Positions 3,678 through 14,035 of a stretch of 64,000 bases of DNA are shown piece after piece. The notes beneath the pieces are model-generated. The model made no database searches and was not told the DNA's origin. It was given only the letters and a program-made list of their open reading frames with translations. A program made the translations under genes and the position numbers. The DNA comes from a candidate division WS6 bacterium GW2011_GWF2_39_15. GTDB lineage: Bacteria; Patescibacteriota; Dojkabacteria; SC72. The stretch lies in contig LBWK01000001.1 in assembly GCA_000993565.1 (NCBI GenBank), positions 84,869-148,868 of the forward strand, written 5' to 3'. Every line of letters starts with the position of its first letter. The stretch's first letter is position 1.

Positions 3678-4778
3678 TCAATCAAATGTTCTTAATGTTT
3701 TCCCTACCTTTGGCTTATTTGTTTCATCCGCTTTTATTTTTTCACTTAGAATATAGTAAGTTCCTCTCCCAACCCCTTTTTGTTGAATATACTTCATATC
3801 CAGAAGCTCCTGGAGATCTCGGAATGCTGTCATAAATGACACGCCCATCAATTTTGAGTAATCATGCCGGGTAATACGGCGTTCTTTTTCCATAGTCTCC
3901 AGTATTTTCACCTGCCTGGGATTAAGGCTCTCATTTAGTTTACTGTACTTCTTAACTCTATTATCGTAAGTATTTTTTATAAGAGTCGATACCTCGGTCG
4001 AGGTGAGTGCAAGAGAGTATAGGAGTGTTTCAATAAATATAGTTAAATCCTTTTTTGACTTGCATATTTTAAAAGCACTTATAATTTCTTCTGAGATTTG
4101 GTTGATAGCTTTAGCAAAAGGAATTAGGTTTCTATGATTATAGCCGTATTCTTTAGCCAAAATGGAAATCGTCGTTATCGCAGTTATCTGATTTAGGGCG
4201 TTAAAAGGGGCTTTATCCATTATCTCGTAAAGGAGAACGGCCAGCTGGATTAGCTTATGAGGGACATTTTTAGGTGTGTTAATCCAGAGAAACAGCTCGT
4301 CAAGATGTCTTTTAGGCTTGAGATTAGGGAAAAAATCCCGAAGCTTATACCAGTTATCATGGATATCGTTGGGCTTTTCAGAAAAAGTTCTCAATTTTCC
4401 TATTTCCCATTCTTCCACTAAACTTTTACCAAGCAGTTTATTCAGATGTATCATTAGCTCTGAAGAAGGGCGGTAGAAAGAAGAAGCAGTATAAACATTT
4501 ATAAAGTCCTGCACACTTCTATAATTGGTAAGGATCCGATCTTTGGCTTTACCCGTAGGCAAAACCTTTCCTCTTTGGATTTGCAGTGCTTTGCTATATC
4601 CAATACTAGATCCAATTAACTCTCCAAGCTTATCTATATCCTCTGCTCTCAATTTTTCATAAACTTCTGTAAAATATGTGTCGGGTAGCGGGGTGGTTCT
4701 GATTCGCTCAAGTGCTAGTTCACACTTTACAATGTAGCTGAGGATATATTGTGTGATTGTAAAGGTTGGTGAGTACAT
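3678..4778 (-). CDS. Fic-family protein with degenerate active-site motif and C-terminal winged-HTH
   Basis: 366 aa. The region ...LYEIMDKAPFNALNQITAITT aligns to the Fic core ..IHPFxDGNGRxxR, but H, G, N, G and R are substituted. The C-terminal RHDYSKLMGVSFMTAFRDLQELLDMKYIQQKGVGRGTYYIL is wHTH-like, as in long Fic proteins. Confidence 0.5.
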   Translation of the reverse strand: MYSPTFTITQYILSYIVKCELALERIRTTPLPDTYFTEVYEKLRAEDIDKLGELIGSSIGYSKALQIQRGKVLPTGKAKDRILTNYRSVQDFINVYTASSFYRPSSELMIHLNKLLGKSLVEEWEIGKLRTFSEKPNDIHDNWYKLRDFFPNLKPKRHLDELFLWINTPKNVPHKLIQLAVLLYEIMDKAPFNALNQITAITTISILAKEYGYNHRNLIPFAKAINQISEEIISAFKICKSKKDLTIFIETLLYSLALTSTEVSTLIKNTYDNRVKKYSKLNESLNPRQVKILETMEKERRITRHDYSKLMGVSFMTAFRDLQELLDMKYIQQKGVGRGTYYILSEKIKADETNKPKVGKTLRTFD

Positions 4779-4908: not shown

Positions 4909-7575
4909 CTATGCAACTGGCGTTGTTGGATCGGTATTTGTACTAATGACAGGTTCAGCAGGCGTTTGTGTGGGTACTTTGCTAGTAGCCTGTTGATTAA
5001 GTTTAATCGCCTCCTGTGTCGGCACATCGAAATTCCCTATAACCGGAGGAGGTTTCTTCCTATCTCTTGATCGCTTTACTATTAGGGTGGTCATTATGAG
5101 CAGGATTGATATTACAAGTCCGGCAACTGCAGTTAGTGCGATTAGTATAATATTGCCCCTTACATTAATACCCATCTCCTCAAGACGCTGTTCAATTGAT
5201 TGCATGTTGAATAACGGTGTTTGATCCTCACCGTCCTTTATTTTCTTTTCTGATATCTTAATTAATGGAGACATAATGCTTTGTGAGACAGGGTAAAGTG
5301 AGACAACCTTTTTGAAATCTACCAAAGCCAATTTATAGTATGCTTTTGAAAAATTATTAACTCCGCTGCGAATAAGTTTAGCAATTTTCCCTTCAGTTAT
5401 TTGAACAGAGTTTTCCTTTAATAATCTTGTAACTTCCTCTACAGAAATACCTGCATTAAAGTCCGCTGATTCATTTTCTGAAAGCTTGTAGGTCGTTACT
5501 CCGACAACATCACCATCACTATTTAATATTGGGCCTCCGCTGTTACCATAAGAAATAGAGGCGTCTATCTGTAAAAGTTTGAAAGTGCCGTCTATACTTG
5601 GTTTAACGGCGCTAATTATTCCATTTGTAACAGTTGCAATACTAGATGCTGAAGCGGCAAATACACTTTCGTTATTTACTGATCCAGGAAATCCTAAAAC
5701 ATATATCGGCATTCCGGAGGTCAGAACTTCATGCGATGTGAGCTTCAAGAATGGATAATCCTTGTTCTGAGTGTCAACTTTAATAAGAGCGAGATCTGGT
5801 ATTGATGGTGTAATCGGCTTATTATTTGCCTCGTTGTACAAACGCTTGTAGTGTGAATCTACCTGTCCTTTCACTAAAGTTGTTGCAAGCTGGTCTTGGG
5901 TATTTATAAGGTTATAAGTATTTAGATCAACTGAGAACGGTTTCTCCTGTTCTACAAAGTTAGTATACGAAGGTTCAAGTGTAATAACTCCTTGGTTTTC
6001 AAGCTCTATAAAAGAGGACATTAGAAAGAGAAGTGCATCAGAGTTGGAGTAGATATTTAGGTCAGTTGAGTAGTTTGAGAGGAGATACTGCTGAATATCC
6101 GTCGCGAAATCTCTCCAGAAAACATTGGTACTGCCAGTTAGTAGTAAGGAAGAAATGAGCATATCAACTGGATTAGGAGTTGCAACATGCCCATTGGTTA
6201 CAATATAACCTTGACTACTGACAAAAAAGCCAGATCCTGTACTCGCCTGGCATATATCATATGTTTTGCCAGGAGTAGTTTTAAGACCGCTATCACTGGA
6301 TACTTTTACTAGGACACATGCTTTATTGTATATATGTACAACTGATGGTTTCCCAATTAAAGCGGATCGATCAATTTCCAGAGACGAAGTTCCCAGTATA
6401 TTACTAGTCAGATTAAATGAACTCTCACTCTGTATATTTGTACTTTCTTCATACTTTACGGTTGTAAGAAGTTTATCGATGGCTTTTTCACCGTTGCTTC
6501 CAGTTACTGGCATGGTTGCCTTTATCGTAATAATATATTTATTATCCTTGCTCGTAGTTGTATAGATTTTGATCTTTGTCGCTGAACCTGTAAATGTATA
6601 AGAATATTCACTATAAAGGTAGGATGTACCGCCGATGTCCCTCTTTATTTTATCTGAGGAGTATTTTAGACCTTTATCCCTGTAAAAATTCTTATCAAAT
6701 GAAGTGTAAATATCATGACTTGTTTGTTCTGTTTCGTTTTCCCCTTTTGTAGAAGATGTTATTGCGAGGGTAGTTGTACTGTATTTAAAATCATCCAATT
6801 TCTCCTGATTCTCGCTTCTAAAGTTTAAAAACGCCGAATACTCAGTACTTGATGAAAGGATCCACATATCTCTATCATATTTTAATGAGGTACCACCTTT
6901 GGGGATTTCAACCTTTATATCGGTTGCGAGGTCCTTTGGTTCATATTCAGCCTTTGTTAGTATATTAGCTACCTCTGATATGTGATTCGTGACACTATAA
7001 CCATCGGGATATACAATGGTAGCTTTCAAAAACTTATCATTTACCTTTCTATAAACAATTTGTGTATTAAAAAGGGCTTTTGAGTTATCCAGGAAAGATT
7101 CTTTAACATAGGAAAATCTCATCCCTTTTAATTTCTCTATCTCGCTTTCTTCTTCTTTCTTTACATTTTCATAAAGTGCTTTGAGAGCATTTTCTTCTGA
7201 TTGAGGTGAAGTCTCTGTTGATGTAAGAGCTATTGTTGTATAGATATCCAGGTTATATGCTCCAATTTTGCTTACATACACAGAGCTGGAGGAGTCATTT
7301 AAAAGATATTTCGTAGAATCATACGTGAACAAAGTATTCAGAGAGGGGGAATAAAAAGTGGAGGTCTTGTTATGGGTACCCTTGTATACAAGCTGATTTG
7401 TCACCTCTTGTGCAAGTTGCGGGTCAAGGTTTGCTAGGACGATTTTCCCTTCCTTGCCCTTGCCTTGAATATCATCATAGAGACCCTTACCAATTATTAT
7501 AAAGAGGATTAATGAGTTTAAAATACTTAATACCACTCCCGTAAGGATAAGAGATTTTACATTTAACTCTTTCAT
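4909..7575 (-). CDS. Membrane-anchored trypsin-like (HtrA/S1-family) serine protease domain protein
   Basis: 888 aa. It has an N-terminal signal-anchor (LILTGVVLSILNSLILFIIIG). The central region contains GFFVSSQGYIVTNGHVA (His box) and ...GNSGGPILNSDGDVVGV (the GxSGGP Ser box). A C-terminal TM helix (ILIALTAVAGLVISILLIMTTLIV) is followed by a Pro-rich tail. Confidence 0.55.
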   Translation of the reverse strand: MKELNVKSLILTGVVLSILNSLILFIIIGKGLYDDIQGKGKEGKIVLANLDPQLAQEVTNQLVYKGTHNKTSTFYSPSLNTLFTYDSTKYLLNDSSSSVYVSKIGAYNLDIYTTIALTSTETSPQSEENALKALYENVKKEEESEIEKLKGMRFSYVKESFLDNSKALFNTQIVYRKVNDKFLKATIVYPDGYSVTNHISEVANILTKAEYEPKDLATDIKVEIPKGGTSLKYDRDMWILSSSTEYSAFLNFRSENQEKLDDFKYSTTTLAITSSTKGENETEQTSHDIYTSFDKNFYRDKGLKYSSDKIKRDIGGTSYLYSEYSYTFTGSATKIKIYTTTSKDNKYIITIKATMPVTGSNGEKAIDKLLTTVKYEESTNIQSESSFNLTSNILGTSSLEIDRSALIGKPSVVHIYNKACVLVKVSSDSGLKTTPGKTYDICQASTGSGFFVSSQGYIVTNGHVATPNPVDMLISSLLLTGSTNVFWRDFATDIQQYLLSNYSTDLNIYSNSDALLFLMSSFIELENQGVITLEPSYTNFVEQEKPFSVDLNTYNLINTQDQLATTLVKGQVDSHYKRLYNEANNKPITPSIPDLALIKVDTQNKDYPFLKLTSHEVLTSGMPIYVLGFPGSVNNESVFAASASSIATVTNGIISAVKPSIDGTFKLLQIDASISYGNSGGPILNSDGDVVGVTTYKLSENESADFNAGISVEEVTRLLKENSVQITEGKIAKLIRSGVNNFSKAYYKLALVDFKKVVSLYPVSQSIMSPLIKISEKKIKDGEDQTPLFNMQSIEQRLEEMGINVRGNIILIALTAVAGLVISILLIMTTLIVKRSRDRKKPPPVIGNFDVPTQEAIKLNQQATSKVPTQTPAEPVISTNTDPTTPVA

Positions 7576-7643: not shown

Positions 7644-7720
7644 TGGAGCGAGAGACGGGACTCGAACCCGCAACCTTCTCCTTGGGAAGGAGACATTCTA
7701 ACCAATTGAACTACTCTCGC
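7644..7720 (-). tRNA. tRNA-Gly (anticodon CCC), CCA encoded
   Basis: The reverse complement reads gcgagag-ta-gttcaattggttagaat-g-tctcc-ttCCCaa-ggaga-aggtt-gcgggttcgagtcccgt-ctctcgc-t-cca. Confidence 0.8.
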
Positions 7721-7755
7721 ATCTCGATATTTATACCATAAATAGGGGTTTCTTT

Positions 7756-8472
7756 TTAGGGCTTATTTTGAAATAAACAAGTAATGTAAATCCTCGGAAA
7801 TTCTCCTTTATATGCTCGTGTCACAGTTTGATACTCCTCATATTCAATGAGTTTTAAAGGTGAGAAGAGCTTTTCCAGCTCTCCTTTTGTAAAAGCTTTC
7901 TCTGTTATCGTATCTTCTTCAAATTTAAATCTGTACGAATTCTCTTCGGGGCCGGGCATTTTAGCCTTTAAATCAACTACTGCAGGAGAGTTAGCCAGGA
8001 GTGTAAAAATAAGGTAGTAACCGTTTGGAGCAATTAACCTCTTAATATGCTTTACGGTCTCTCTTCTAGACGACTTTGTCATCGAATGAAGTGTAGTCAT
8101 ATCAATAATTAGGGAGTAGCTGTTTACATCTTTCCCAATCTCAAGGGCTGCATCGTTTGCAATGAAATCAATTCGGTCTGCCAGTCCAAGCCTTTTAGCC
8201 TCCTGCTTTGCCAGGTCAATAGCTACAGGTGAAAGGTCAATTGCTTTGACATATTTAAAACCGTTTTGTATTAAATAGAAGGCGTTTCTCCCGTTACCTG
8301 CTCCAATATCCAAAGCTTTATCCTTCTTTATTCTGGGATACTTCTCAATAAATCTTCTTAAAGAGGAAGAAGGGTGAAATGTATTTGAGGAGGGTAGGGC
8401 TTTACGTGTTGAATATTCTTTATTCCAGAGGTATTTTCTGTATTTGATAGAATCGATATCTAATCCACCCAT
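7756..8472 (-). CDS. Class I SAM-dependent methyltransferase, TehB-like
   Basis: 238 aa. Motif I is LDIGAGNGRNAFYLIQNGF, compared with TehB LDLGCGNGRNSLYLAANGY. The downstream acidic motif and ...APNGYYLI match the TehB GGYNLI region. Confidence 0.6.
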   Translation of the reverse strand: MGGLDIDSIKYRKYLWNKEYSTRKALPSSNTFHPSSSLRRFIEKYPRIKKDKALDIGAGNGRNAFYLIQNGFKYVKAIDLSPVAIDLAKQEAKRLGLADRIDFIANDAALEIGKDVNSYSLIIDMTTLHSMTKSSRRETVKHIKRLIAPNGYYLIFTLLANSPAVVDLKAKMPGPEENSYRFKFEEDTITEKAFTKGELEKLFSPLKLIEYEEYQTVTRAYKGEFPRIYITCLFQNKP

Positions 8473-9404
8473 TCGCTTTTCTGAATAATCTCAGATAACA
8501 CCCAGTCATAGTCACCATTCACGACATTTGCATCGCAGTATTTACATATACCTGATACAGATACTTCTATAGGAGCTCCACAGTTTGGACATTTCCTGTC
8601 GAATAATCCACTTTTTAACTTTGTTTTAAGAGTAGAGCGTCTTATGAATACCCAATATTCTGTAAATGGGGGAGTTTGCTCCTTTGTACCCTCTATAATT
8701 TTTTCGGGTGCTCCTTCCTTTACTTTATAATCCTTCATTGATGCACGGATCTTAACCGCAATTTTGTGATACTCTTCGCCCATATCAACTCGTACTATGT
8801 TAGTAGACCCTACTACTATATTTTCAAGCACATTGATTGTTTTGTTCTTCTTCATATTTTCAATCTGCATTTGGTGGCTCTGATATACCTCCTCGGACAT
8901 AAACGGTCTGCAGACTGCCTGATCTCTGTTTGTCCATCCTTCCTGAACAGACATAAACACTTTTTTAGAGTATGTCTTAAATTTCTGCTCATCAAACTGG
9001 GGGTCAGTCTTCTTTAAGGCTTTGAGACCGTCATTTACCTGTTCACTTTGCATTGAGGAATGATCAGGTGTTATTGGAGTATCAGAGACTGTAGGACCGC
9101 CAGGTCCCGAACCACCCTTTCGTCTTGAGGCTAATATTACTATGACAATGATAATTATGATTATAACGAATGTAGAACAGCCAACACCATCATTATTAAT
9201 ACCTGAGCCATTACCAGAGGTTGTAGACCATCCTGAGCCCCCAAAATCGCCGGATGATGAGCTTCCAGAGTCAAAGCCACCATCTCCAAAACTTTCACCA
9301 CCACCTGCACGTGCATAAGCAAATCCTGTGCTGGTTAATGTTAGAAGAAAGGTCAGAATTAAAGCTAAAAGTATTTTACTTCTGTTCCTGTTGTACTGGA
9401 TCAT
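8460..9404 (-). CDS. Tim44-like domain membrane protein with Gly-rich region and C-terminal zinc-ribbon
   Basis: Signal/TM at the N-terminus. There is a G/S-rich low-complexity stretch, then a poly-Ile TM helix (VIIIIIIVIVIL). A roughly 150-aa domain ending ..FTEYWVFIRR is Tim44-like. The C-terminal CPNCGAPIEVSVSGICKYC carries a CxxC...CxxC ribbon. The start is uncertain (9422 or 9404). Confidence 0.45.
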   Translation of the reverse strand: MIQYNRNRSKILLALILTFLLTLTSTGFAYARAGGGESFGDGGFDSGSSSSGDFGGSGWSTTSGNGSGINNDGVGCSTFVIIIIIIVIVILASRRKGGSGPGGPTVSDTPITPDHSSMQSEQVNDGLKALKKTDPQFDEQKFKTYSKKVFMSVQEGWTNRDQAVCRPFMSEEVYQSHQMQIENMKKNKTINVLENIVVGSTNIVRVDMGEEYHKIAVKIRASMKDYKVKEGAPEKIIEGTKEQTPPFTEYWVFIRRSTLKTKLKSGLFDRKCPNCGAPIEVSVSGICKYCDANVVNGDYDWVLSEIIQKSEWVD

Positions 9405-10284
9405 TCTTTTTGTCTTTTTCATCAGGATTTAATGCTTTCATTCCCATAGCGATTCCCATACCTGTTGCAGCAGCATCTGCAGCCGATGAACCGGCTGAAC
9501 TGCCTTGCTCAAGTCCTTTTGCCATGCCGAGCTTTACTGCGGCATCTGCAGCGGCACCATTTTGAGCGTATGCAAAATCTCTGGTCATCTGTTTAAGCGT
9601 GGCTTCATCTTCTTCCTTTATTGATACGGTTACATTTCCCAGCTTGTTTATAGCGACACCATATTCCAAAAGATCCGGAGAAACTTTATCTAAAGCCATT
9701 TTTTCAAATGCGGAGGCCTGTGATGCAATACCTAAAATATCCTGTTTATCAACTGAAACGTATTTTGAGACCATCTCACGGAAATGCTTAAGGAGAAGGT
9801 CTTTAAGCCAGTCAGTAATTTGTTCATTACTCTGAAGACTCTGTGTCCCAACAAGTGTAAGAATTAGTTTTTGGGGATCGGAAACTGTCATAGCATATTC
9901 TCCAAAAACCCTAATACCGACAGCCAGATTAGTTCTTGGATCAACAACATTATCGATCATCCCTCCAAATGGTAGATCAGTAAACTGCCTTGTTGAAACG
10001 AAATACAATTCGGAAATGAGGAAGTTGCCACCAGTCGCCGAATCAATCAGTCCACTTAAAAAGGGGATACTTGCTCCATCGAGTGTATGTGTACCAGGCT
10101 GCAGTGTCCCTACAACTTGTCCCTTTTTAAAGAAAACAGCTAATTCATCCTGTTGAACAGTTAGTTGCGTCATCATTCGGATATTCGTATCAGGCCATTT
10201 ATAGATGATTTTATCTTTAGAATCATCAGGCCTTGCTACAAACTCTCTTTTAACTTCCTTCTTGAAAAAATCAAATATTCCCAT
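9376..10284 (-). CDS. SPFH/Band-7 family (Band_7_1, YdjI-like) protein
   Basis: 302 aa. The N-terminus MGIFDFFKKEV..KWPD is characteristic of the Band_7_1 / 'T7 gp14-like' SPFH subfamily. The C-terminal Ala/Gly-rich tail (AAADAAVKLGMAKG..SSAADAAATGMGIAMG) is typical. Confidence 0.5.
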   Translation of the reverse strand: MGIFDFFKKEVKREFVARPDDSKDKIIYKWPDTNIRMMTQLTVQQDELAVFFKKGQVVGTLQPGTHTLDGASIPFLSGLIDSATGGNFLISELYFVSTRQFTDLPFGGMIDNVVDPRTNLAVGIRVFGEYAMTVSDPQKLILTLVGTQSLQSNEQITDWLKDLLLKHFREMVSKYVSVDKQDILGIASQASAFEKMALDKVSPDLLEYGVAINKLGNVTVSIKEEDEATLKQMTRDFAYAQNGAAADAAVKLGMAKGLEQGSSAGSSAADAAATGMGIAMGMKALNPDEKDKKNDPVQQEQK

Positions 10285-10288
10285 GTTT

Positions 10289-10681
10289 TTATTTACTAAT
10301 TTTAGCTGTACTCTTAACCTCCGGACTCATGGCTAATTGAACTTTCTTCCAATCCCTTCTTAACTGAGCTCCCAAGCGCTTTGCTGCATCTAAGGTTAAT
10401 GATTTATCATTTTTGAACTCATCAATGACTTCACCAATGATGGAGAAATATTTCTGCTCATCAATCTTTTTACCCGCAGCTTTAAGAGCTTCGACTTTTT
10501 GAGTTACTAGGTCCCTGGCATCTTCAAAATAGTCGTAGGTTTGATCTTTTACCTTTTTTGCTAACTTTAGAAGGTCTTCCCTGGTCTCTTTTCCTGCCTT
10601 AGGAGCGAGAAGAACACCGGCTACTGTGCCGACTACGGCGCCGAATATGAGACCTTTAATAAATGAACCTGCTTTGTCCAT
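10289..10681 (-). CDS. YtxH-like (DUF948) small membrane stress protein
   Basis: 130 aa. The N-terminal glycine-zipper TM (FIKGLIFGAVVGTVAGVLLAPKAGKETRE) is followed by a long amphipathic helix. This matches the YtxH family. Confidence 0.5.
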   Translation of the reverse strand: MDKAGSFIKGLIFGAVVGTVAGVLLAPKAGKETREDLLKLAKKVKDQTYDYFEDARDLVTQKVEALKAAGKKIDEQKYFSIIGEVIDEFKNDKSLTLDAAKRLGAQLRRDWKKVQLAMSPEVKSTAKISK

Positions 10682-10758: not shown

Positions 10759-11397
10759 ATGATACTACCATCGTTGGACTTAGAAAAAAGCCTGTGGGCC
10801 AAAGGTTATGAAAATGTCGCCGGCCTAGATGAAGTCGGTAGAGGCCCCTTAGCCGGACCTGTAGTGGCTGGGGTTGTTGTTATAAATAAAGAGGAGCAGG
10901 TTATAGAGGGGGTTAGAGATAGTAAAAAGTTAAGTGAGAAAAAGAGGGAAGAACTTAGTGAAAAAATAGTAGAAGTCTCAGCAGGCTATGGAATAGGGTT
11001 TGTAGGTAGTGAAGAGATTGATATGTTTGGGATTGCTAAAGCCGTTAATTTGGCCATGACAAGGGCTGTGGAAGAAATGGTAACATATTTCAATATAAAT
11101 CCAGGCTTTCTTATAATAGATGGTAAGGCAGTATGGGATATCTCACCATATCCTTGTCTTAAAATGGATAAGGGAGATCTTCATCACTACTCAATCGCTG
11201 CTGCCTCTATAATTGCCAAGGTTGCAAGGGATAACCTGATGAAGGAGTACGCTGCTAAGTATCCTAATTATGGTTTTGACTCTAATGTAGGGTATGGTAC
11301 TAAAAAACATCTTGAGGCTATTCAAAATTACGGCATATGTGATATACATAGGAAAAGTTTTCACCCTATTTCAAATTTTGTTGTAAATACTGAGTAA
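10759..11397 (+). CDS. rnhB: Ribonuclease HII
   Basis: 212 aa. GLDEVGRGPLAGPVV contains the catalytic DEVGRG motif. Overall length is as expected for RNase HII. Confidence 0.85.
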   Translation: MILPSLDLEKSLWAKGYENVAGLDEVGRGPLAGPVVAGVVVINKEEQVIEGVRDSKKLSEKKREELSEKIVEVSAGYGIGFVGSEEIDMFGIAKAVNLAMTRAVEEMVTYFNINPGFLIIDGKAVWDISPYPCLKMDKGDLHHYSIAAASIIAKVARDNLMKEYAAKYPNYGFDSNVGYGTKKHLEAIQNYGICDIHRKSFHPISNFVVNTE

Positions 11398-12091: not shown

Positions 12092-13111
12092 ATGATCCAT
12101 AGATTCATGAAAAAGCCAGAGCTCAACTACAAGAAATTTCTAAAGATATCACTCCAAATATTTATCTACGTTTTGGTCATATACTACATTTACGAAAGAG
12201 CTTCTGTGGGAAGAGATCTTGTTAAGTCAATTGAAAATATTGACAAAATATATTTCATATCAGCGATACTTGTTTACTTGATTCAAACACTGTTCAACTC
12301 CTTTTTGTGGTTTATAATAATGGTAAAATCGGGAGAGAAAGTAAGCTTAGTGTCACAAGTAGATGTTTACTTGAAATCCTACTTACTTAGATATATTCCG
12401 GGTAATGTTGTAGGTATATTTGCAAGAGGTGAATTTAACAAGGTTTATGGTGTATCAAGACTCAAAAGCTTGTGGGGATGGTTCCTCGAAAATATTACTT
12501 TCTTAGCCGTAGGTATTGGTTTTGGCTCATACTTCATTGTAAAGAACCTTACATCTGTACTTAATTTCACGACAAGTGTTGTTTCTCGCCAGAACATAGT
12601 AATTGCTATATCGGGTGCGGTCGTTATACTAATCTTGTTTGCAGTCTACCTCTCCATGTATAAGACGAATGAGCTGTGGAAGTTTTTCGACAGTTACATT
12701 CTAAAGAAGGTGCTCAAGAAAAATCTCGGTAAAAGCATTACTATTAAATTTGACAACCAATCGAGGATACTCATAGTTTTAGGGTACATAGTCTCATGGG
12801 CAATGTACTCAATCTCATTTATTCTTATGGTTGCAGCAGTTGATCCAGCGGCCTTAGAATATCCAATAGCATTAGCCTCCGTAAACGCCTTAGCATGGTC
12901 ACTAGGCTACCTGTTTATAATCACTCCAAGCGGTTCAGGAGTTAGAGAGGGAGCCTTTCTTTCACTTCTACCTCTAATTGCAGGAATTAGTCCAGTTGGT
13001 TCCGCAATCATAACGATAGGCATGAGATTAGTCAATGTAATCGGGGAAGTTGGTGCTTTCGCCTTATTTAAGGCGTATACTGTACTTAATAAAATGTACA
13101 AAAGATTGTAG
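12092..13111 (+). CDS. Flippase-like domain (UPF0104 / lysyl-PG-synthase TM region family) membrane protein
   Basis: 339 aa and polytopic. The MKKPELNYKKFLKI start, the TM distribution and the ...ITPSGSGVREGAF motif match the UPF0104 'flippase-like' family, which is frequently coupled to glycosyltransferases. Confidence 0.5.
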   Translation: MIHRFMKKPELNYKKFLKISLQIFIYVLVIYYIYERASVGRDLVKSIENIDKIYFISAILVYLIQTLFNSFLWFIIMVKSGEKVSLVSQVDVYLKSYLLRYIPGNVVGIFARGEFNKVYGVSRLKSLWGWFLENITFLAVGIGFGSYFIVKNLTSVLNFTTSVVSRQNIVIAISGAVVILILFAVYLSMYKTNELWKFFDSYILKKVLKKNLGKSITIKFDNQSRILIVLGYIVSWAMYSISFILMVAAVDPAALEYPIALASVNALAWSLGYLFIITPSGSGVREGAFLSLLPLIAGISPVGSAIITIGMRLVNVIGEVGAFALFKAYTVLNKMYKRL

Positions 13112-14035
13112 ATGAAGAAAGTATCCGTCATAGTCCCCATATACAATGAGGGTGAAGCAGTCCGATCTTTTCTAAATGACTTGATTAAAGAAGTAGGCAA
13201 ACTTAAATATCAATCTGAAATACTGGTTTTTGATAGCCCTACCTCCAAAAATTCCGAAAAGGTACTTCGAGAATTTGCAAAAAAGTATCCCAATGTGAAA
13301 GGATATGAGGTACGACATCCTGGTGTTACTGTTACAGACAAAACAAATAAATATATGCTGGGCATACAGCTTGCACAAGGCGATTACATAATAACGTCTG
13401 ATGGAGACGGGCAGGACAGGCCTGAGGAGTTCCATAAGTTCTTCCAAGCACTGGAAGAGGGATATGATTTCGCAATCGGGCGTAAAAAGAAGAGAAGAGA
13501 TGGCCTAGCGTACATGATAACATCACGCATTGCCAACTTCATTGTCAGATCCATTACCGGAGTAAAAGTTCATGATATGAATAACGGGATAAAAGCTTTT
13601 AGAAAGGATATAGCGAGAGAATTGAATTTGAAGGCAGGTCATTTTAGATTTATTCCTGTAATCGCAGCCGCAAAAAAGTGGAAGATAACGGAAATAGATG
13701 TTGAGCATAGGGAACGTTTAGGAAAAGGTAGGTTTTCATTTATGAGCAGGCTCCAGGGAGGGTTATTTGACATGCTTATAGTTTACTTCATTACAAAAAT
13801 GGGAGATACACCTATGTACCTGCTTGGCTGGTTCTCCCTAATTATGAAGCTTTTTGCATTTGTATTCCTCCTTCTTGGCCTTTTTGGCAAGGGGGAGGTC
13901 TTCTATATACTGTCACTAATGATATTTCTTTTCTCTATAAATACCTTTCTGTCAGCACTCCTAATGGAATATCAAAGAACTTCCTATGAGAGAAAAGATT
14001 ATTCTTCACTCATTGTTGAGAAGATCGGCAGCTAA
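13112..14035 (+). CDS. GT2-family polyprenyl-phosphate glycosyltransferase (DPM1/GtrB/ArnC-like)
   Basis: 307 aa. VSVIVPIYNEGEAV marks the GT-A fold start, followed by a DGDGQD (DxD) motif. Two C-terminal TM helices match the GtrB/ArnC architecture. Confidence 0.75.
   Translation: MKKVSVIVPIYNEGEAVRSFLNDLIKEVGKLKYQSEILVFDSPTSKNSEKVLREFAKKYPNVKGYEVRHPGVTVTDKTNKYMLGIQLAQGDYIITSDGDGQDRPEEFHKFFQALEEGYDFAIGRKKKRRDGLAYMITSRIANFIVRSITGVKVHDMNNGIKAFRKDIARELNLKAGHFRFIPVIAAAKKWKITEIDVEHRERLGKGRFSFMSRLQGGLFDMLIVYFITKMGDTPMYLLGWFSLIMKLFAFVFLLLGLFGKGEVFYILSLMIFLFSINTFLSALLMEYQRTSYERKDYSSLIVEKIGS

What the first reader, a model, noticed from the sequence alone, without database searches (positions are those of the whole stretch)
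7756..10681. Four-gene membrane-stress style operon: YtxH-like, SPFH (Band_7_1), Tim44-like/zinc-ribbon protein, TehB-like methyltransferase
Four minus-strand genes overlap or abut: 10681..10289, 10284..9376, 9422..8460 and 8472..7756. The first three mirror the B. subtilis ydjG/H/I-type module (zinc-ribbon, Tim44-like and SPFH proteins) that works with the PspA envelope-stress response. Here the zinc ribbon and Tim44-like domain appear fused in one protein. That protein also carries an extraordinary poly-Ile TM (IIIIIIVIVIL) and a G/S-rich segment. The operon is capped by a TehB-like SAM methyltransferase, which is not part of the described Bacillus module.
Basis: partly seen in the sequence, partly recalled or inferred. 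Interest (0 to 1): 0.5.

Follow-up and report, generated by a model that had tools for sequence, protein, structure and literature searches.

The report
SPFH scaffold with Tim44-like membrane anchor
A tiny-genome (CPR) bacterium carries four tightly packed genes whose conserved core is a widespread but unstudied gene pair, a stomatin/flotillin-like scaffold protein and a membrane protein with a mitochondrial-Tim44-like domain plus zinc ribbon, which most likely tethers the scaffold to the cell membrane.

Summary
Four minus-strand ORFs lie at exactly the stated coordinates, separated by a 4-nt gap, a 47-nt overlap and a 13-nt overlap. They encode YtxH, a TM-less Band_7_1 SPFH protein, a Tim44-like/Cys4 zinc-ribbon membrane protein and a TehB-like class I methyltransferase. 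Pfam, PDB profile hits and AlphaFold/Foldseek all agree. The source is candidate division WS6 (Dojkabacteria, CPR).

In the Bacillus pspA-ydjGHI operon fetched here, YdjH is a TPM-domain protein. YdjG gives no Tim44 signal; only the zinc ribbon aligns. No PspA is detectable in the window or in any related locus.

The Tim44+ribbon architecture, the poly-Ile/Val TM and the G/S-rich ectodomain are features of a large family, about 2,400 50%-identity clusters at E≤1e-30. What is specific to this lineage is that the SPFH partner has lost its zinc ribbon.

The conserved unit is the SPFH + Tim44-ZnR pair. It is adjacent on the same strand in 30 of 41 informative loci, in both gene orders. Another 4 loci pair Tim44-ZnR with a TPM protein instead. 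YtxH is an addition at the Dojkabacteria level. The methyltransferase is only loosely linked.

Best reading: a PspA-independent membrane-scaffold module that is analogous, not orthologous, to YdjG/H→YdjI. Interest is moderate.

The parts
10289..10681 (-). YtxH-family small membrane protein (130 aa). It has an N-terminal glycine-rich hydrophobic helix followed by amphipathic helices. It is the first gene of the cluster.
   Evidence: Pfam PF12732 at 6.8e-17, 62 bits against a cut-off of 37.5. There is one hydrophobic segment at residues about 5-30. It lies immediately upstream of the SPFH gene (4-32 nt spacer) in the window, L001, L002, L092 and L093. It is present without the dyad in L095 and absent from the dyad in L094 and in all non-CPR loci.
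9376..10284 (-). Soluble Band_7_1 (YdjI-family) SPFH protein (302 aa). It comprises an SPFH domain, a long C-terminal helix and a disordered Ala/Gly/Met-rich tail. It has no TM and no zinc ribbon.
   Evidence: Pfam PF13421 at 1.1e-30 and PF01145 at 8.5e-07. The AF2 model has pLDDT 74. Foldseek PDB top hits are stomatin 9z7u, prohibitin 8rrh, HflK/C 7vhq and flotillin 9bq2, with E from 1e-7 to 1e-5. No hydrophobic window was found. It is 23% identical to Bacillus YdjI. There are 0 CxxC motifs in the tail, against >=2 in all 40 non-Dojkabacteria dyad partners.
8460..9422 (-). Tim44-ZnR membrane protein (320 aa, or 314 aa from Met7). It is a predicted type I membrane protein with cytoplasmic Tim44-like and zinc-ribbon domains.
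   Evidence: Pfam PF04280 at 4.3e-23. The whole architecture is conserved in 22 diverse relatives. The family has 2,362 50%-identity clusters at E<=1e-30. It is adjacent to a Band_7_1 gene in 30 of 41 informative loci.
9312..9422 (-). Predicted Sec signal peptide of the Tim44-ZnR protein (residues 1-37, with an A-Y-A|R cleavage motif).
   Evidence: There is a hydrophobic segment at residues about 15-35. An AxA motif followed by the conserved (R/D)(A/V)G..E.Y is aligned in all 22 family members. Cleavage itself is inferred and was not tested.
9174..9311 (-). Short G/S/D-rich low-complexity ectodomain (residues 38-83), predicted to be disordered.
   Evidence: pLDDT is below 50 over residues 34-84. 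Across 98 family members the median length is 55 aa and the mean G/S/D/W/N/T/Y content is 75%. G40 is invariant.
9126..9173 (-). Ile/Val-rich transmembrane helix (residues about 84-99, TFVIIIIIIVIVILAS), followed by a basic RRK stop-transfer sequence.
   Evidence: The AF2 model places a helix at 84-101. Family-wide, this TM averages 68% I+V and 8% Leu, against 27% I+V and 26% Leu in the same proteins' signal peptides.
8637..9032 (-). Tim44-like (NTF2-fold) domain, residues 131-262, predicted to be cytoplasmic.
   Evidence: Pfam call. The family profile hits human TIM44 C-domain 2cw9 at 3.6e-9, yeast Tim44 and mL45. pLDDT exceeds 90 over residues 121-265. Foldseek top hits are 2cw9, mL45, 3qk9 and 2fxt.
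8526..8597 (-). C-terminal Cys4 zinc ribbon (C278, C281, C293, C296; CPNCGAP...CKYC), followed by a conserved DWVLS tail.
   Evidence: All four Cys, plus P279, G282 and A283, are invariant in alignment A1. Pfam ribbon hits are weak (0.014-0.054). This is the only part that aligns with Bacillus YdjG.
7756..8472 (-). TehB-like class I SAM-dependent methyltransferase (238 aa), soluble. Its start codon overlaps the Tim44-ZnR stop by 13 nt. It is a loosely linked, lineage-restricted passenger.
   Evidence: Methyltransf_25 at 5.8e-15 and TehB PF03848 at 1e-07. The NCBIfam TehB equivalogs score far below their cut-offs, 44 bits against 218. Orthologues in L001, L092 and L093 are 36-54% identical and share the W..EY..PS..T..PSSSLR.F and DIGxGNGRN motifs. 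The whole-database search found only 18 relatives. Its position varies.
7644..7720 (-). tRNA-Gly(CCC), the downstream boundary of the cluster.
   Evidence: ARAGORN and Rfam at 69.5 bits. The same tRNA follows YtxH directly in L095, where the dyad is absent.

Best explanation
The functional core is a two-gene membrane-scaffold module. The Tim44-ZnR protein is exported by a signal peptide and retained by one Ile/Val-rich TM helix. It displays a short acidic, disordered ectodomain outside the cell. Inside, it carries a Tim44-like (NTF2-fold, membrane-proximal) domain and a Cys4 zinc ribbon.

The Tim44-ZnR protein most likely acts as the membrane receptor or anchor for the TM-less Band_7_1 SPFH protein. 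[quoted passage not shown] There it would organise or stabilise a membrane patch under envelope stress.

This is the same logic as YdjG/YdjH recruiting YdjI in Bacillus subtilis, or NfeD working with stomatin, but with a different, non-homologous anchor and no PspA gene nearby. In Dojkabacteria the pair is co-transcribed with a YtxH membrane stress protein. In some genomes it is also co-transcribed with a TehB-like methyltransferase, whose link to the module is weak.

Shown here: gene order and overlaps, domain and fold identities, predicted topology features, and conservation of the gene pair. Inferred: physical interaction, oligomerisation, topology, and the envelope-maintenance role.
For: The SPFH protein has no hydrophobic segment, while the Tim44-ZnR protein has two.

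Conserved adjacency: of 41 Tim44-ZnR loci with at least 1 kb on both sides, 30 have a Band_7_1 gene directly adjacent on the same strand, 23 upstream and 7 downstream. After dereplication at 70% identity the figure is 21 of 30 informative clusters. Two clearly different Band_7_1 subfamilies are involved, scoring about 1e-145 and about 1e-14 to 1e-22 against the local HMM. The flanks outside the pair are unrelated: enolase, phosphoglycerate mutase, RadC and PNPOx.

Four further informative loci pair Tim44-ZnR with a TPM-domain protein (6 of 6 members hit Pfam TPM, best 2.9e-7). That reproduces the partner set of Bacillus YdjG.

Published work shows that the TM-less YdjI needs the membrane proteins YdjG and YdjH for membrane localisation (PMC8581546). 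The tight spacing and overlaps are seen in the window and in Dojkabacteria relatives.
Against: No interaction, localisation or phenotype data exist for any member. A complex prediction could not be run. About a quarter of informative Tim44-ZnR loci have no SPFH neighbour, so the anchor is not obligatorily tied to SPFH. The metagenomic sample is the best 80 tblastn hits and is taxonomically uneven, with many similar soil contigs. The signal-peptide cleavage and the N-out/C-in topology are inferred from sequence only. The role of the zinc ribbon is unknown, and the Dojkabacteria SPFH has lost the ribbon that all other dyad partners keep. That loss could mean the interaction mode differs in this lineage.
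Confidence: 0.6

Rival explanations
1. One reading: all four genes form one membrane-stress operon that is the CPR counterpart of B. subtilis pspA-ydjGHI. It would work with a PspA encoded elsewhere, and the MTase would be an added functional component.
For: The SPFH protein is in the YdjI Pfam family. Tim44-ZnR shares with YdjG a zinc ribbon, one TM and, according to PMC11237479, an NTF2-like fold class. Tim44-ZnR pairs with SPFH or TPM partners, as YdjG does. YtxH is a general-stress membrane protein family. The four genes are tightly packed.
Against: No PspA, TPM or YdjG homologue is detectable in the window or in any dyad locus. YdjG gives no Tim44 signal, and YdjH is a TPM protein, not Tim44. 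YtxH persists without the dyad (L095), and the dyad persists without YtxH (L094 and all non-CPR loci). The MTase is absent, displaced or elsewhere in several relatives.
Confidence: 0.2
2. The SPFH/Tim44-ZnR pair regulates a membrane protease, in the way that HflK/C cages FtsH or stomatin works with NfeD. Here the client would be the 888-aa two-TM trypsin-like protease encoded just downstream (4909..7575).
For: SPFH cages around proteases are an established theme; HflK/C-FtsH structures were among the fold hits. The protease has Trypsin_2/HtrA-like hits. It is syntenic downstream of the cluster in L001 and in L093, at 44% identity over 848 aa.
Against: The protease is separated from the cluster by a tRNA gene. 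It is not seen within 5-6 kb in L002 or L092. It does not recur as a neighbour of the dyad outside the Dojkabacteria. The synteny is most simply explained by conserved local gene order in one lineage.
Confidence: 0.1
3. The adjacency has no functional meaning. The four genes are unrelated neighbours squeezed together in a compact CPR genome.
For: CPR genomes are gene-dense, and overlapping starts and stops are common there (general knowledge). YtxH and the MTase behave as separable neighbours.
Against: The SPFH + Tim44-ZnR pair recurs in 30 of 41 informative loci from soil, peat and gut metagenomes. It occurs in both gene orders, with different SPFH subfamilies and with unrelated flanks. Chance or lineage synteny cannot explain that.
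Confidence: 0.05

Closest known systems
Bacillus subtilis PspA-YdjG-YdjH-YdjI envelope-stress module (Scholz et al. 2021, PMC8581546; Ravi et al. 2024, PMC11237479)
   Same: Both contain a TM-less Band_7_1 SPFH protein of the YdjI family, encoded next to a single-pass membrane protein that carries a zinc ribbon. In both cases the zinc-ribbon membrane protein's gene family associates with Band_7_1 and with TPM-domain partners. The likely logic is the same: a membrane anchor recruits a soluble SPFH scaffold.
   Different: There is no PspA and no TPM protein here. The anchor is not homologous to YdjG beyond the ribbon motif. YdjG runs ZnR-ZnR-domain-TM, whereas this protein runs signal peptide-ectodomain-TM-Tim44-ZnR. 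The SPFH protein here lacks the C-terminal ribbon that YdjI has.
Tim44 C-terminal domain / mitoribosomal mL45 / bacterial Tim44-TimA family (PF04280)
   Same: The domain matches by sequence profile and by fold. Tim44 and mL45 both use this NTF2-like domain as a peripheral inner-membrane tether (established knowledge of those proteins).
   Different: This protein scores below the NCBIfam Tim44/TimA adaptor subfamily cut-off, 64.9 bits against 80. It has its own signal peptide, ectodomain, TM and C-terminal Cys4 ribbon, none of which belongs to mitochondrial Tim44. There is no link to protein import.
SPFH-partner operons such as stomatin-NfeD and HflK/C-FtsH
   Same: An SPFH-fold protein is encoded with a dedicated membrane partner. 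[quoted passage not shown]
   Different: The SPFH protein here has no membrane anchor of its own. The partner is a Tim44-ZnR protein, not NfeD or an AAA protease.
TehB tellurite-resistance methyltransferase
   Same: It has a class I SAM-MTase fold, a Pfam TehB domain hit above gathering (32.1 bits against 20.4) and a GNGRN-type SAM-binding motif.
   Different: Generic MTase models score higher. All the NCBIfam TehB equivalogs score far below their cut-offs, 35-44 bits against 218-303. It belongs to a small orthologous group labelled only Dojkabacteria or 'bacterium'. Its substrate is unknown.

Membership tests
SPFH superfamily, Band_7_1 / YdjI family (PF13421) | Profile match above the curated cut-off | tested here: met
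   PF13421 scores 107.3 bits against a cut-off of 24, and PF01145 scores 29.6 against 23.6.
SPFH superfamily, Band_7_1 / YdjI family (PF13421) | SPFH alpha/beta fold followed by a long C-terminal helix | tested here: met
   The AF2 model has an SPFH core plus a helix at residues 224-260. Foldseek top hits are stomatin, prohibitin, HflK/C and flotillin at probability 1.00.
SPFH superfamily, Band_7_1 / YdjI family (PF13421) | No transmembrane segment of its own (YdjI type) | tested here: met
   No 19-residue window reaches Kyte-Doolittle >=1.6.
SPFH superfamily, Band_7_1 / YdjI family (PF13421) | C-terminal zinc ribbon(s), as in YdjI and in most close relatives | tested here: not met
   There are 0 CxxC motifs in the tail of the window protein and of 5 other Dojkabacteria orthologues. 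All 40 other dyad partners and YdjI have >=2.
SPFH superfamily, Band_7_1 / YdjI family (PF13421) | Assembly into a membrane-associated ring or cage oligomer | not testable with these tools
   Only single-chain prediction was available.
Tim44-like domain family (PF04280) | Profile match above the curated cut-off | tested here: met
   82.5 bits against a cut-off of 29.6, over residues 131-262.
Tim44-like domain family (PF04280) | Sequence and fold similarity to solved Tim44 C-terminal domains | tested here: met
   The family profile hits 2cw9 at 3.6e-9, together with yeast Tim44 and mL45. Foldseek top hits are 2cw9, mL45, 3qk9 and 2fxt.
Tim44-like domain family (PF04280) | Membership of the NCBIfam Tim44/TimA adaptor subfamily (NF033779) or TimA (NF033778) | tested here: not met
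   64.9 bits against a cut-off of 80, and 37.5 against 200.
Tim44-like domain family (PF04280) | Binding to membrane or cardiolipin | not testable with these tools
   This needs biochemistry.
B. subtilis pspA-ydjGHI module | A PspA/IM30 gene in the operon | tested here: not met
   A Bacillus PspA HMM finds nothing better than E=0.49 in the window's ORFs and nothing in L001-L007 or L012-L091 at E<1e-4. It does find PspA in the Bacillus control loci. This was a single-sequence HMM, so its sensitivity is limited.
B. subtilis pspA-ydjGHI module | A YdjH-type TPM-domain membrane protein | tested here: not met
   None of the four window proteins hits TPM. YdjH itself is TPM at 1.1e-23.
B. subtilis pspA-ydjGHI module | A YdjG homologue (two N-terminal zinc ribbons, a central domain and a C-terminal TM) | tested here: not met
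   BLASTP and hhalign align only the CPNCG ribbon motif, at probability 72%. YdjG has no Tim44 Pfam hit at E<=1.
B. subtilis pspA-ydjGHI module | A YdjI-type Band_7_1 protein | tested here: met
   Same Pfam family, 23% identity, E=4e-14.
YtxH family (PF12732) | Profile match above the cut-off and an N-terminal hydrophobic helix | tested here: met
   62.1 bits against a cut-off of 37.5. The hydrophobic segment is at residues about 5-30.
TehB tellurite-resistance methyltransferase | Equivalog-level match (NF008405, NF008992, TIGR00477) | tested here: not met
   Scores are 44.1, 43.6 and 35.1 bits against cut-offs of 218, 303 and 219.5. Only the domain-level Pfam TehB hit passes, at 32.1 against 20.4.
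SPFH-NfeD operon | An NfeD-family partner gene next to the SPFH gene | tested here: not met
   There is no NfeD hit among the cluster proteins or the immediate neighbours.
Known anti-phage defence systems (PADLOC) | A match of the core proteins to defence-system models | tested here: not met
   The SPFH and Tim44-ZnR proteins have no hits. The MTase matches only the MTase domain of mad2.

The most novel reading that the evidence does not exclude
The SPFH (Band_7_1) + Tim44-ZnR pair may be a widespread, PspA-independent membrane-scaffolding system that has not been described. It would be present in thousands of bacterial lineages, from CPR to Clostridia-type and soil bacteria. In it, a dedicated type I membrane protein with an Ile/Val-zipper TM and a Tim44-like domain would act as a general adaptor, docking either SPFH cages or TPM-domain proteins onto the cytoplasmic membrane. 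On this reading, using the Tim44 fold as a membrane tether is an ancient bacterial theme, predating and independent of mitochondrial import. The Dojkabacteria version would be a streamlined form with the ribbon lost from the SPFH protein, a YtxH partner added, and sometimes a dedicated methyltransferase.
Probability: 0.45. Interest if true: 0.55.

Novelty: new variant of a known kind. Interest (0 to 1): 0.4.

Why it matters
SPFH proteins (stomatin, prohibitin, flotillin, HflK/C) are universal membrane organisers. How the TM-less bacterial ones reach the membrane is known only for Bacillus YdjI. This analysis identifies a different, far more widespread candidate anchor: a Tim44-like/zinc-ribbon type I membrane protein, in about 2,400 50%-identity clusters. 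It is genomically coupled to Band_7_1 proteins across distant lineages, including minimal-genome CPR bacteria that have very few envelope-maintenance systems.

It gives a testable partner for an uncharacterised SPFH subfamily. It also suggests a functional context for bacterial Tim44-like domains. Finally, it shows that the Bacillus ydjGHI architecture is one variant of a broader 'zinc-ribbon anchor + SPFH/TPM' theme.

It is not a new kind of system, and every gene is already annotated at domain level in public records.

Tried and rejected
(1) Homology between Tim44-ZnR and Bacillus YdjG or YdjH. BLASTP and hhalign aligned only the ribbon motif, so I rejected orthology with ydjG/H.

(2) PspA, TPM and YdjG in the window. 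Permissive searches with single-sequence HMMs found nothing better than E about 0.4.

(3) A defence-system reading. PADLOC was negative for the core proteins.

(4) A cis-regulatory RNA or riboswitch in or around the cluster. Rfam found only the tRNA.

(5) Promoter and terminator scans were uninformative. The counts matched shuffled expectation, and the one minus-strand terminator-like hit lies inside the YtxH coding sequence.

(6) All-against-all clustering of neighbouring ORFs to find further conserved partners. The third-largest cluster is probably antisense shadow ORFs from greedy ORF calling on the soil contigs (an inference; not checked), so I used only the SPFH and TPM clusters. Sampled flanking ORFs were unrelated housekeeping genes or had no Pfam hit.

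(7) hhalign of the TPM-like upstream family against the single YdjH sequence was not significant, although Pfam TPM hits all six members. The TPM call therefore rests on Pfam alone.

(8) Literature searches for an SPFH-Tim44 association found no report. The library holds open-access papers only, so this is absence of evidence.

(9) The SPFH protein has no solved relative by sequence, so the fold search was needed.

(10) The 191-aa protein upstream of Tim44-ZnR in L003 and the 85-aa ORF between the Tim44 and MTase genes in L001 have no Pfam hits and were not pursued.

Full report
OBSERVATION

The sequence shows a 4-nt gap, then a 47-nt overlap, then a 13-nt overlap. The 47-nt overlap becomes 29 nt if the third gene starts at Met7, as in the public 314-aa annotation.

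Nothing resembling a terminator separates the genes. The cluster is bounded upstream by a divergently transcribed RNase HII gene (10759..11397) and downstream by tRNA-Gly(CCC) at 7720..7644. The third protein is 100% identical to a hypothetical protein of 'candidate division WS6 bacterium GW2011_GWF2_39_15', so the window comes from a Dojkabacteria (CPR/Patescibacteria) genome.

WHAT THE PROTEINS ARE

All four domain calls hold above the curated Pfam cut-offs:
- YtxH at 6.8e-17.
- Band_7_1 at 1.1e-30, plus Band_7.
- Tim44 at 4.3e-23 over residues 131-262.
- A class I SAM methyltransferase whose best models are generic (Methyltransf_25 at 5.8e-15), with a weaker TehB domain hit (1e-07).

NCBIfam shows that the methyltransferase is not a TehB equivalog, scoring 35-44 bits against cut-offs of 218-303. 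It also shows that the Tim44 protein falls below the Tim44/TimA adaptor subfamily cut-off, 64.9 bits against 80.

- A profile of the Tim44-ZnR family hits the solved C-terminal domain of human TIM44 (2cw9, 3.6e-9), yeast Tim44 and mitoribosomal mL45.
- Its AlphaFold model has pLDDT above 90 over residues 121-265 and retrieves the same structures first by Foldseek.
- The SPFH protein has no solved relative by sequence. Its model retrieves stomatin, prohibitin, HflK/C and flotillin at probability 1.00.

The SPFH protein and the methyltransferase have no hydrophobic segment. YtxH has one and the Tim44 protein has two.

ANATOMY OF THE TIM44-ZnR PROTEIN

An alignment of 22 relatives down to 23% identity shows that the complete architecture is conserved. 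In order, it runs:
- an N-terminal hydrophobic segment ending in AxA;
- a (R/D)(A/V)G..E.Y motif with an invariant Gly;
- a short low-complexity G/S/D/W-rich segment;
- an Ile/Val-rich TM;
- a basic patch;
- the Tim44-like domain;
- a CPxCGAP...CxYC ribbon whose four cysteines are invariant;
- a DWVLS tail.

Across 98 full-length family members, the TM averages 68% Ile+Val and 8% Leu. The same proteins' signal peptides average 27% Ile+Val and 26% Leu. The predicted ectodomain has a median length of 55 residues and is 75% G/S/D/W/N/T/Y.

The 'extraordinary' poly-Ile TM and the G/S segment are therefore real, but they are family traits, not oddities of this genome. The same is true of the Tim44+ribbon combination.

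An exhaustive HMM search finds 2,362 50%-identity clusters at E<=1e-30 and 5,286 at E<=1e-10. They come in short (about 310 aa), long (about 520 aa) and about 650-aa forms. From the AxA motif, the acidic segment before the TM and the RRK after it, I infer a type I topology with the Tim44 and ribbon domains in the cytoplasm. This was not tested.

THE BACILLUS COMPARISON, TESTED DIRECTLY

Using the published ydjG primer (PMC8581546) as an exact pattern, I fetched the pspA-ydjG-ydjH-ydjI operon from four close relatives of B. subtilis and analysed the B. stercoris copy, L009. Pfam gives the following:
- PspA_IM30 for PspA.
- Only zinc-ribbon families for YdjG, with no Tim44 hit even at E<=1.
- TPM_phosphatase (1.1e-23) for YdjH.
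- Band_7_1 plus Zn_ribbon_3 for YdjI.

So the Bacillus module has no Tim44-like protein by profile search, and YdjH is a TPM protein. This agrees with Ravi et al. 2024 (PMC11237479), who describe YdjG as two zinc ribbons plus an NTF2-like domain plus a TM.

The window SPFH protein is a distant YdjI relative, at 23% identity and E=4e-14. The Tim44-ZnR protein aligns with YdjG only at the ribbon motif, by BLASTP and by hhalign at probability 72%. It does not align with YdjH at all. No PspA, TPM or YdjG homologue is detectable in the 64-kb window.

WHAT IS CONSERVED AROUND IT

Within the Dojkabacteria:
- The trio YtxH-SPFH-Tim44ZnR, divergent from RNase HII, recurs in L001, L002, L092 and L093.
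- L094 has the SPFH-Tim44ZnR pair without YtxH.
- L095 has RNase HII and YtxH, then about 400 bp of non-coding DNA, then the same tRNA-Gly. The pair is missing there while YtxH stays.

The methyltransferases of the window, L001, L092 and L093 are orthologous. They are 36-54% identical and share an N-terminal W..EY..PS..T..PSSSLR.F motif. The group is small, with 18 database hits labelled only Dojkabacteria or 'bacterium'. Its position varies:
- It overlaps the Tim44 gene in the window and in L093.
- It is separated from it by an 85-aa ORF in L001.
- It lies 1.1 kb away, behind three reverse genes, in L092.
- It is absent within 6 kb in L002.
- It is on the other side of RNase HII in L095.
- It sits in an unrelated context in L096.

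Beyond the CPR, a scan of metagenome contigs returned 80 loci encoding Tim44-ZnR relatives. I called ORFs in them and searched with locally built HMMs.
- Of 41 loci with at least 1 kb on both sides of the Tim44-ZnR gene, 30 have a Band_7_1 gene directly adjacent on the same strand: 23 upstream and 7 downstream.
- After dereplication at 70% identity, 21 of 30 informative clusters show the pair.
- Two clearly different Band_7_1 subfamilies take part.
- The sampled genes flanking the pair are unrelated housekeeping genes or have no Pfam match.
- A further contig, L007, with a Coat_F spore-coat neighbour, has Band_7_1+ribbon immediately upstream of Tim44-ZnR.
- None of these loci has a PspA, YtxH or MTase hit with my HMMs, which are narrow.

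Four of the ten informative loci without SPFH carry a different partner, as do two less complete loci. Immediately upstream of a long-form Tim44-ZnR they have an approximately 209-aa membrane protein. All six members of that family hit Pfam TPM_phosphatase, best E=2.9e-7.

So the Tim44-ZnR family is genomically coupled to either Band_7_1 or TPM proteins. Those are the same two partner families that surround YdjG in Bacillus.

Finally, all 40 SPFH partners outside the Dojkabacteria carry at least two CxxC motifs in their C-terminal tails, as YdjI does. All six Dojkabacteria SPFH proteins have none (see also the Pfam column). The lineage-specific event is loss of the ribbon from the SPFH protein, not gain of a ribbon by the Tim44 protein.

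MECHANISM

The best-supported reading is that the conserved functional unit is the pair. Tim44-ZnR would be a single-pass membrane protein that presents a Tim44-like, membrane-proximal domain and a zinc ribbon to the cytoplasm, and that docks the TM-less SPFH protein onto the membrane. By analogy with every solved SPFH family member retrieved, the SPFH protein would then oligomerise into a ring or cage that organises or protects a membrane patch.

This is the logic shown experimentally for YdjG/YdjH→YdjI in B. subtilis (PMC8581546). Here the anchor is different and non-homologous, and no PspA is in the neighbourhood.

The Ile/Val-rich TM and the short acidic ectodomain are conserved enough to be functional. 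I suggest oligomer packing for the TM and envelope or cation sensing for the ectodomain, but this is speculation.

YtxH, a membrane-anchored amphipathic-helix stress protein family, is probably co-transcribed in Dojkabacteria and may cooperate with the pair, but it is separable from it. The methyltransferase is at best a facultative accessory.

Rivals:
- A protease-regulating SPFH cage acting on the syntenic 888-aa membrane serine protease (0.1).
- Meaningless adjacency (0.05, and only tenable for YtxH and the MTase).

The module is not a recognised defence system, and no structured RNA other than the tRNA is present.

NOVELTY AND VERDICT

Every gene is already annotated at domain level in public records ('SPFH domain-containing', 'Tim44 domain-containing', 'class I SAM-dependent methyltransferase'). 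I found no paper in the searchable open-access library that links SPFH proteins with bacterial Tim44-like proteins. The pair is large and phylogenetically broad.

I rate it a new variant of a known kind, an SPFH scaffold with a dedicated membrane partner. It is of moderate interest: useful as a concrete, testable partner assignment for two poorly understood families, but not surprising in principle.

Noticed in passing
L005:5375-6004, L045:4766-5548, L070:5132-5761, L083:5042-5677, L087:4741-5370, L090:351-998: An approximately 209-aa membrane protein family lies immediately upstream of long-form (about 520 aa) Tim44-ZnR genes, in loci with no SPFH gene. All six members hit Pfam TPM_phosphatase (best 2.9e-7). 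Tim44-ZnR therefore pairs with either SPFH or TPM proteins, mirroring the YdjG partners YdjI and YdjH.
   Followed up: partly
L095:9011-9870 compared with window 7644-10681: One Dojkabacterium keeps RNase HII, YtxH and the same tRNA-Gly(CCC). Between YtxH and the tRNA it has about 400 bp of non-coding DNA instead of the SPFH, Tim44-ZnR and MTase genes. This looks like a clean presence/absence polymorphism of the module. The MTase orthologue sits 3.3 kb away, on the other side of RNase HII.
   Followed up: partly
window 4909-7575 (minus strand): An 888-aa protein has N- and C-terminal TM segments and a trypsin/HtrA-like protease domain (residues about 575-715) after a long unannotated N-terminal region. 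It is syntenic downstream of the cluster in L001 and in L093 (44% identity over 848 aa). A possible SPFH-protease relationship was not established.
   Followed up: partly
L016, L018, L020, L022, L026 (second copy on the opposite strand, about 1.2 kb downstream); L065, L085, L004 (tandem copies): Several soil and gut contigs carry a second Tim44-ZnR paralogue close to the first. It is convergent in some contigs and tandem in others.
   Followed up: no
window 9126-9173 and family-wide (P0001-P0120): The TM helix of the Tim44-ZnR family is strongly enriched in beta-branched residues (68% Ile+Val) and depleted in Leu (8%) across 98 members. The same proteins' signal peptides do not show this. The compositional constraint is conserved and its cause is unknown.
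   Followed up: yes
L001:6918-7175: An 85-aa ORF with two hydrophobic stretches and no Pfam hit is inserted between the Tim44-ZnR gene and the MTase gene in the closest relative. It is absent from the window.
   Followed up: no
window 3678-4778 (minus strand): A 366-aa protein gives only weak C-terminal winged-helix/DeoR-like HTH hits (E about 0.003, below the cut-offs). It lies between tRNA-Thr and the protease gene. It could be a local regulator, but this was not examined.
   Followed up: no
window, whole 64 kb: The window contains seven tRNA genes. It also has a run of envelope and glycosylation genes next to the cluster: LPG_synthase_TM at 12092-13111 (Pfam), followed at 13112-14035 by a gene whose syntenic counterparts in L001 and L093 are annotated Glycos_transf_2, with a PMT_2-like gene beyond it in L001 (window copies not scanned here). 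This block is syntenic with L001 and L093, which indicates strong local gene-order conservation in Dojkabacteria. That conservation argues for caution in reading function from adjacency within this lineage.
   Followed up: partly
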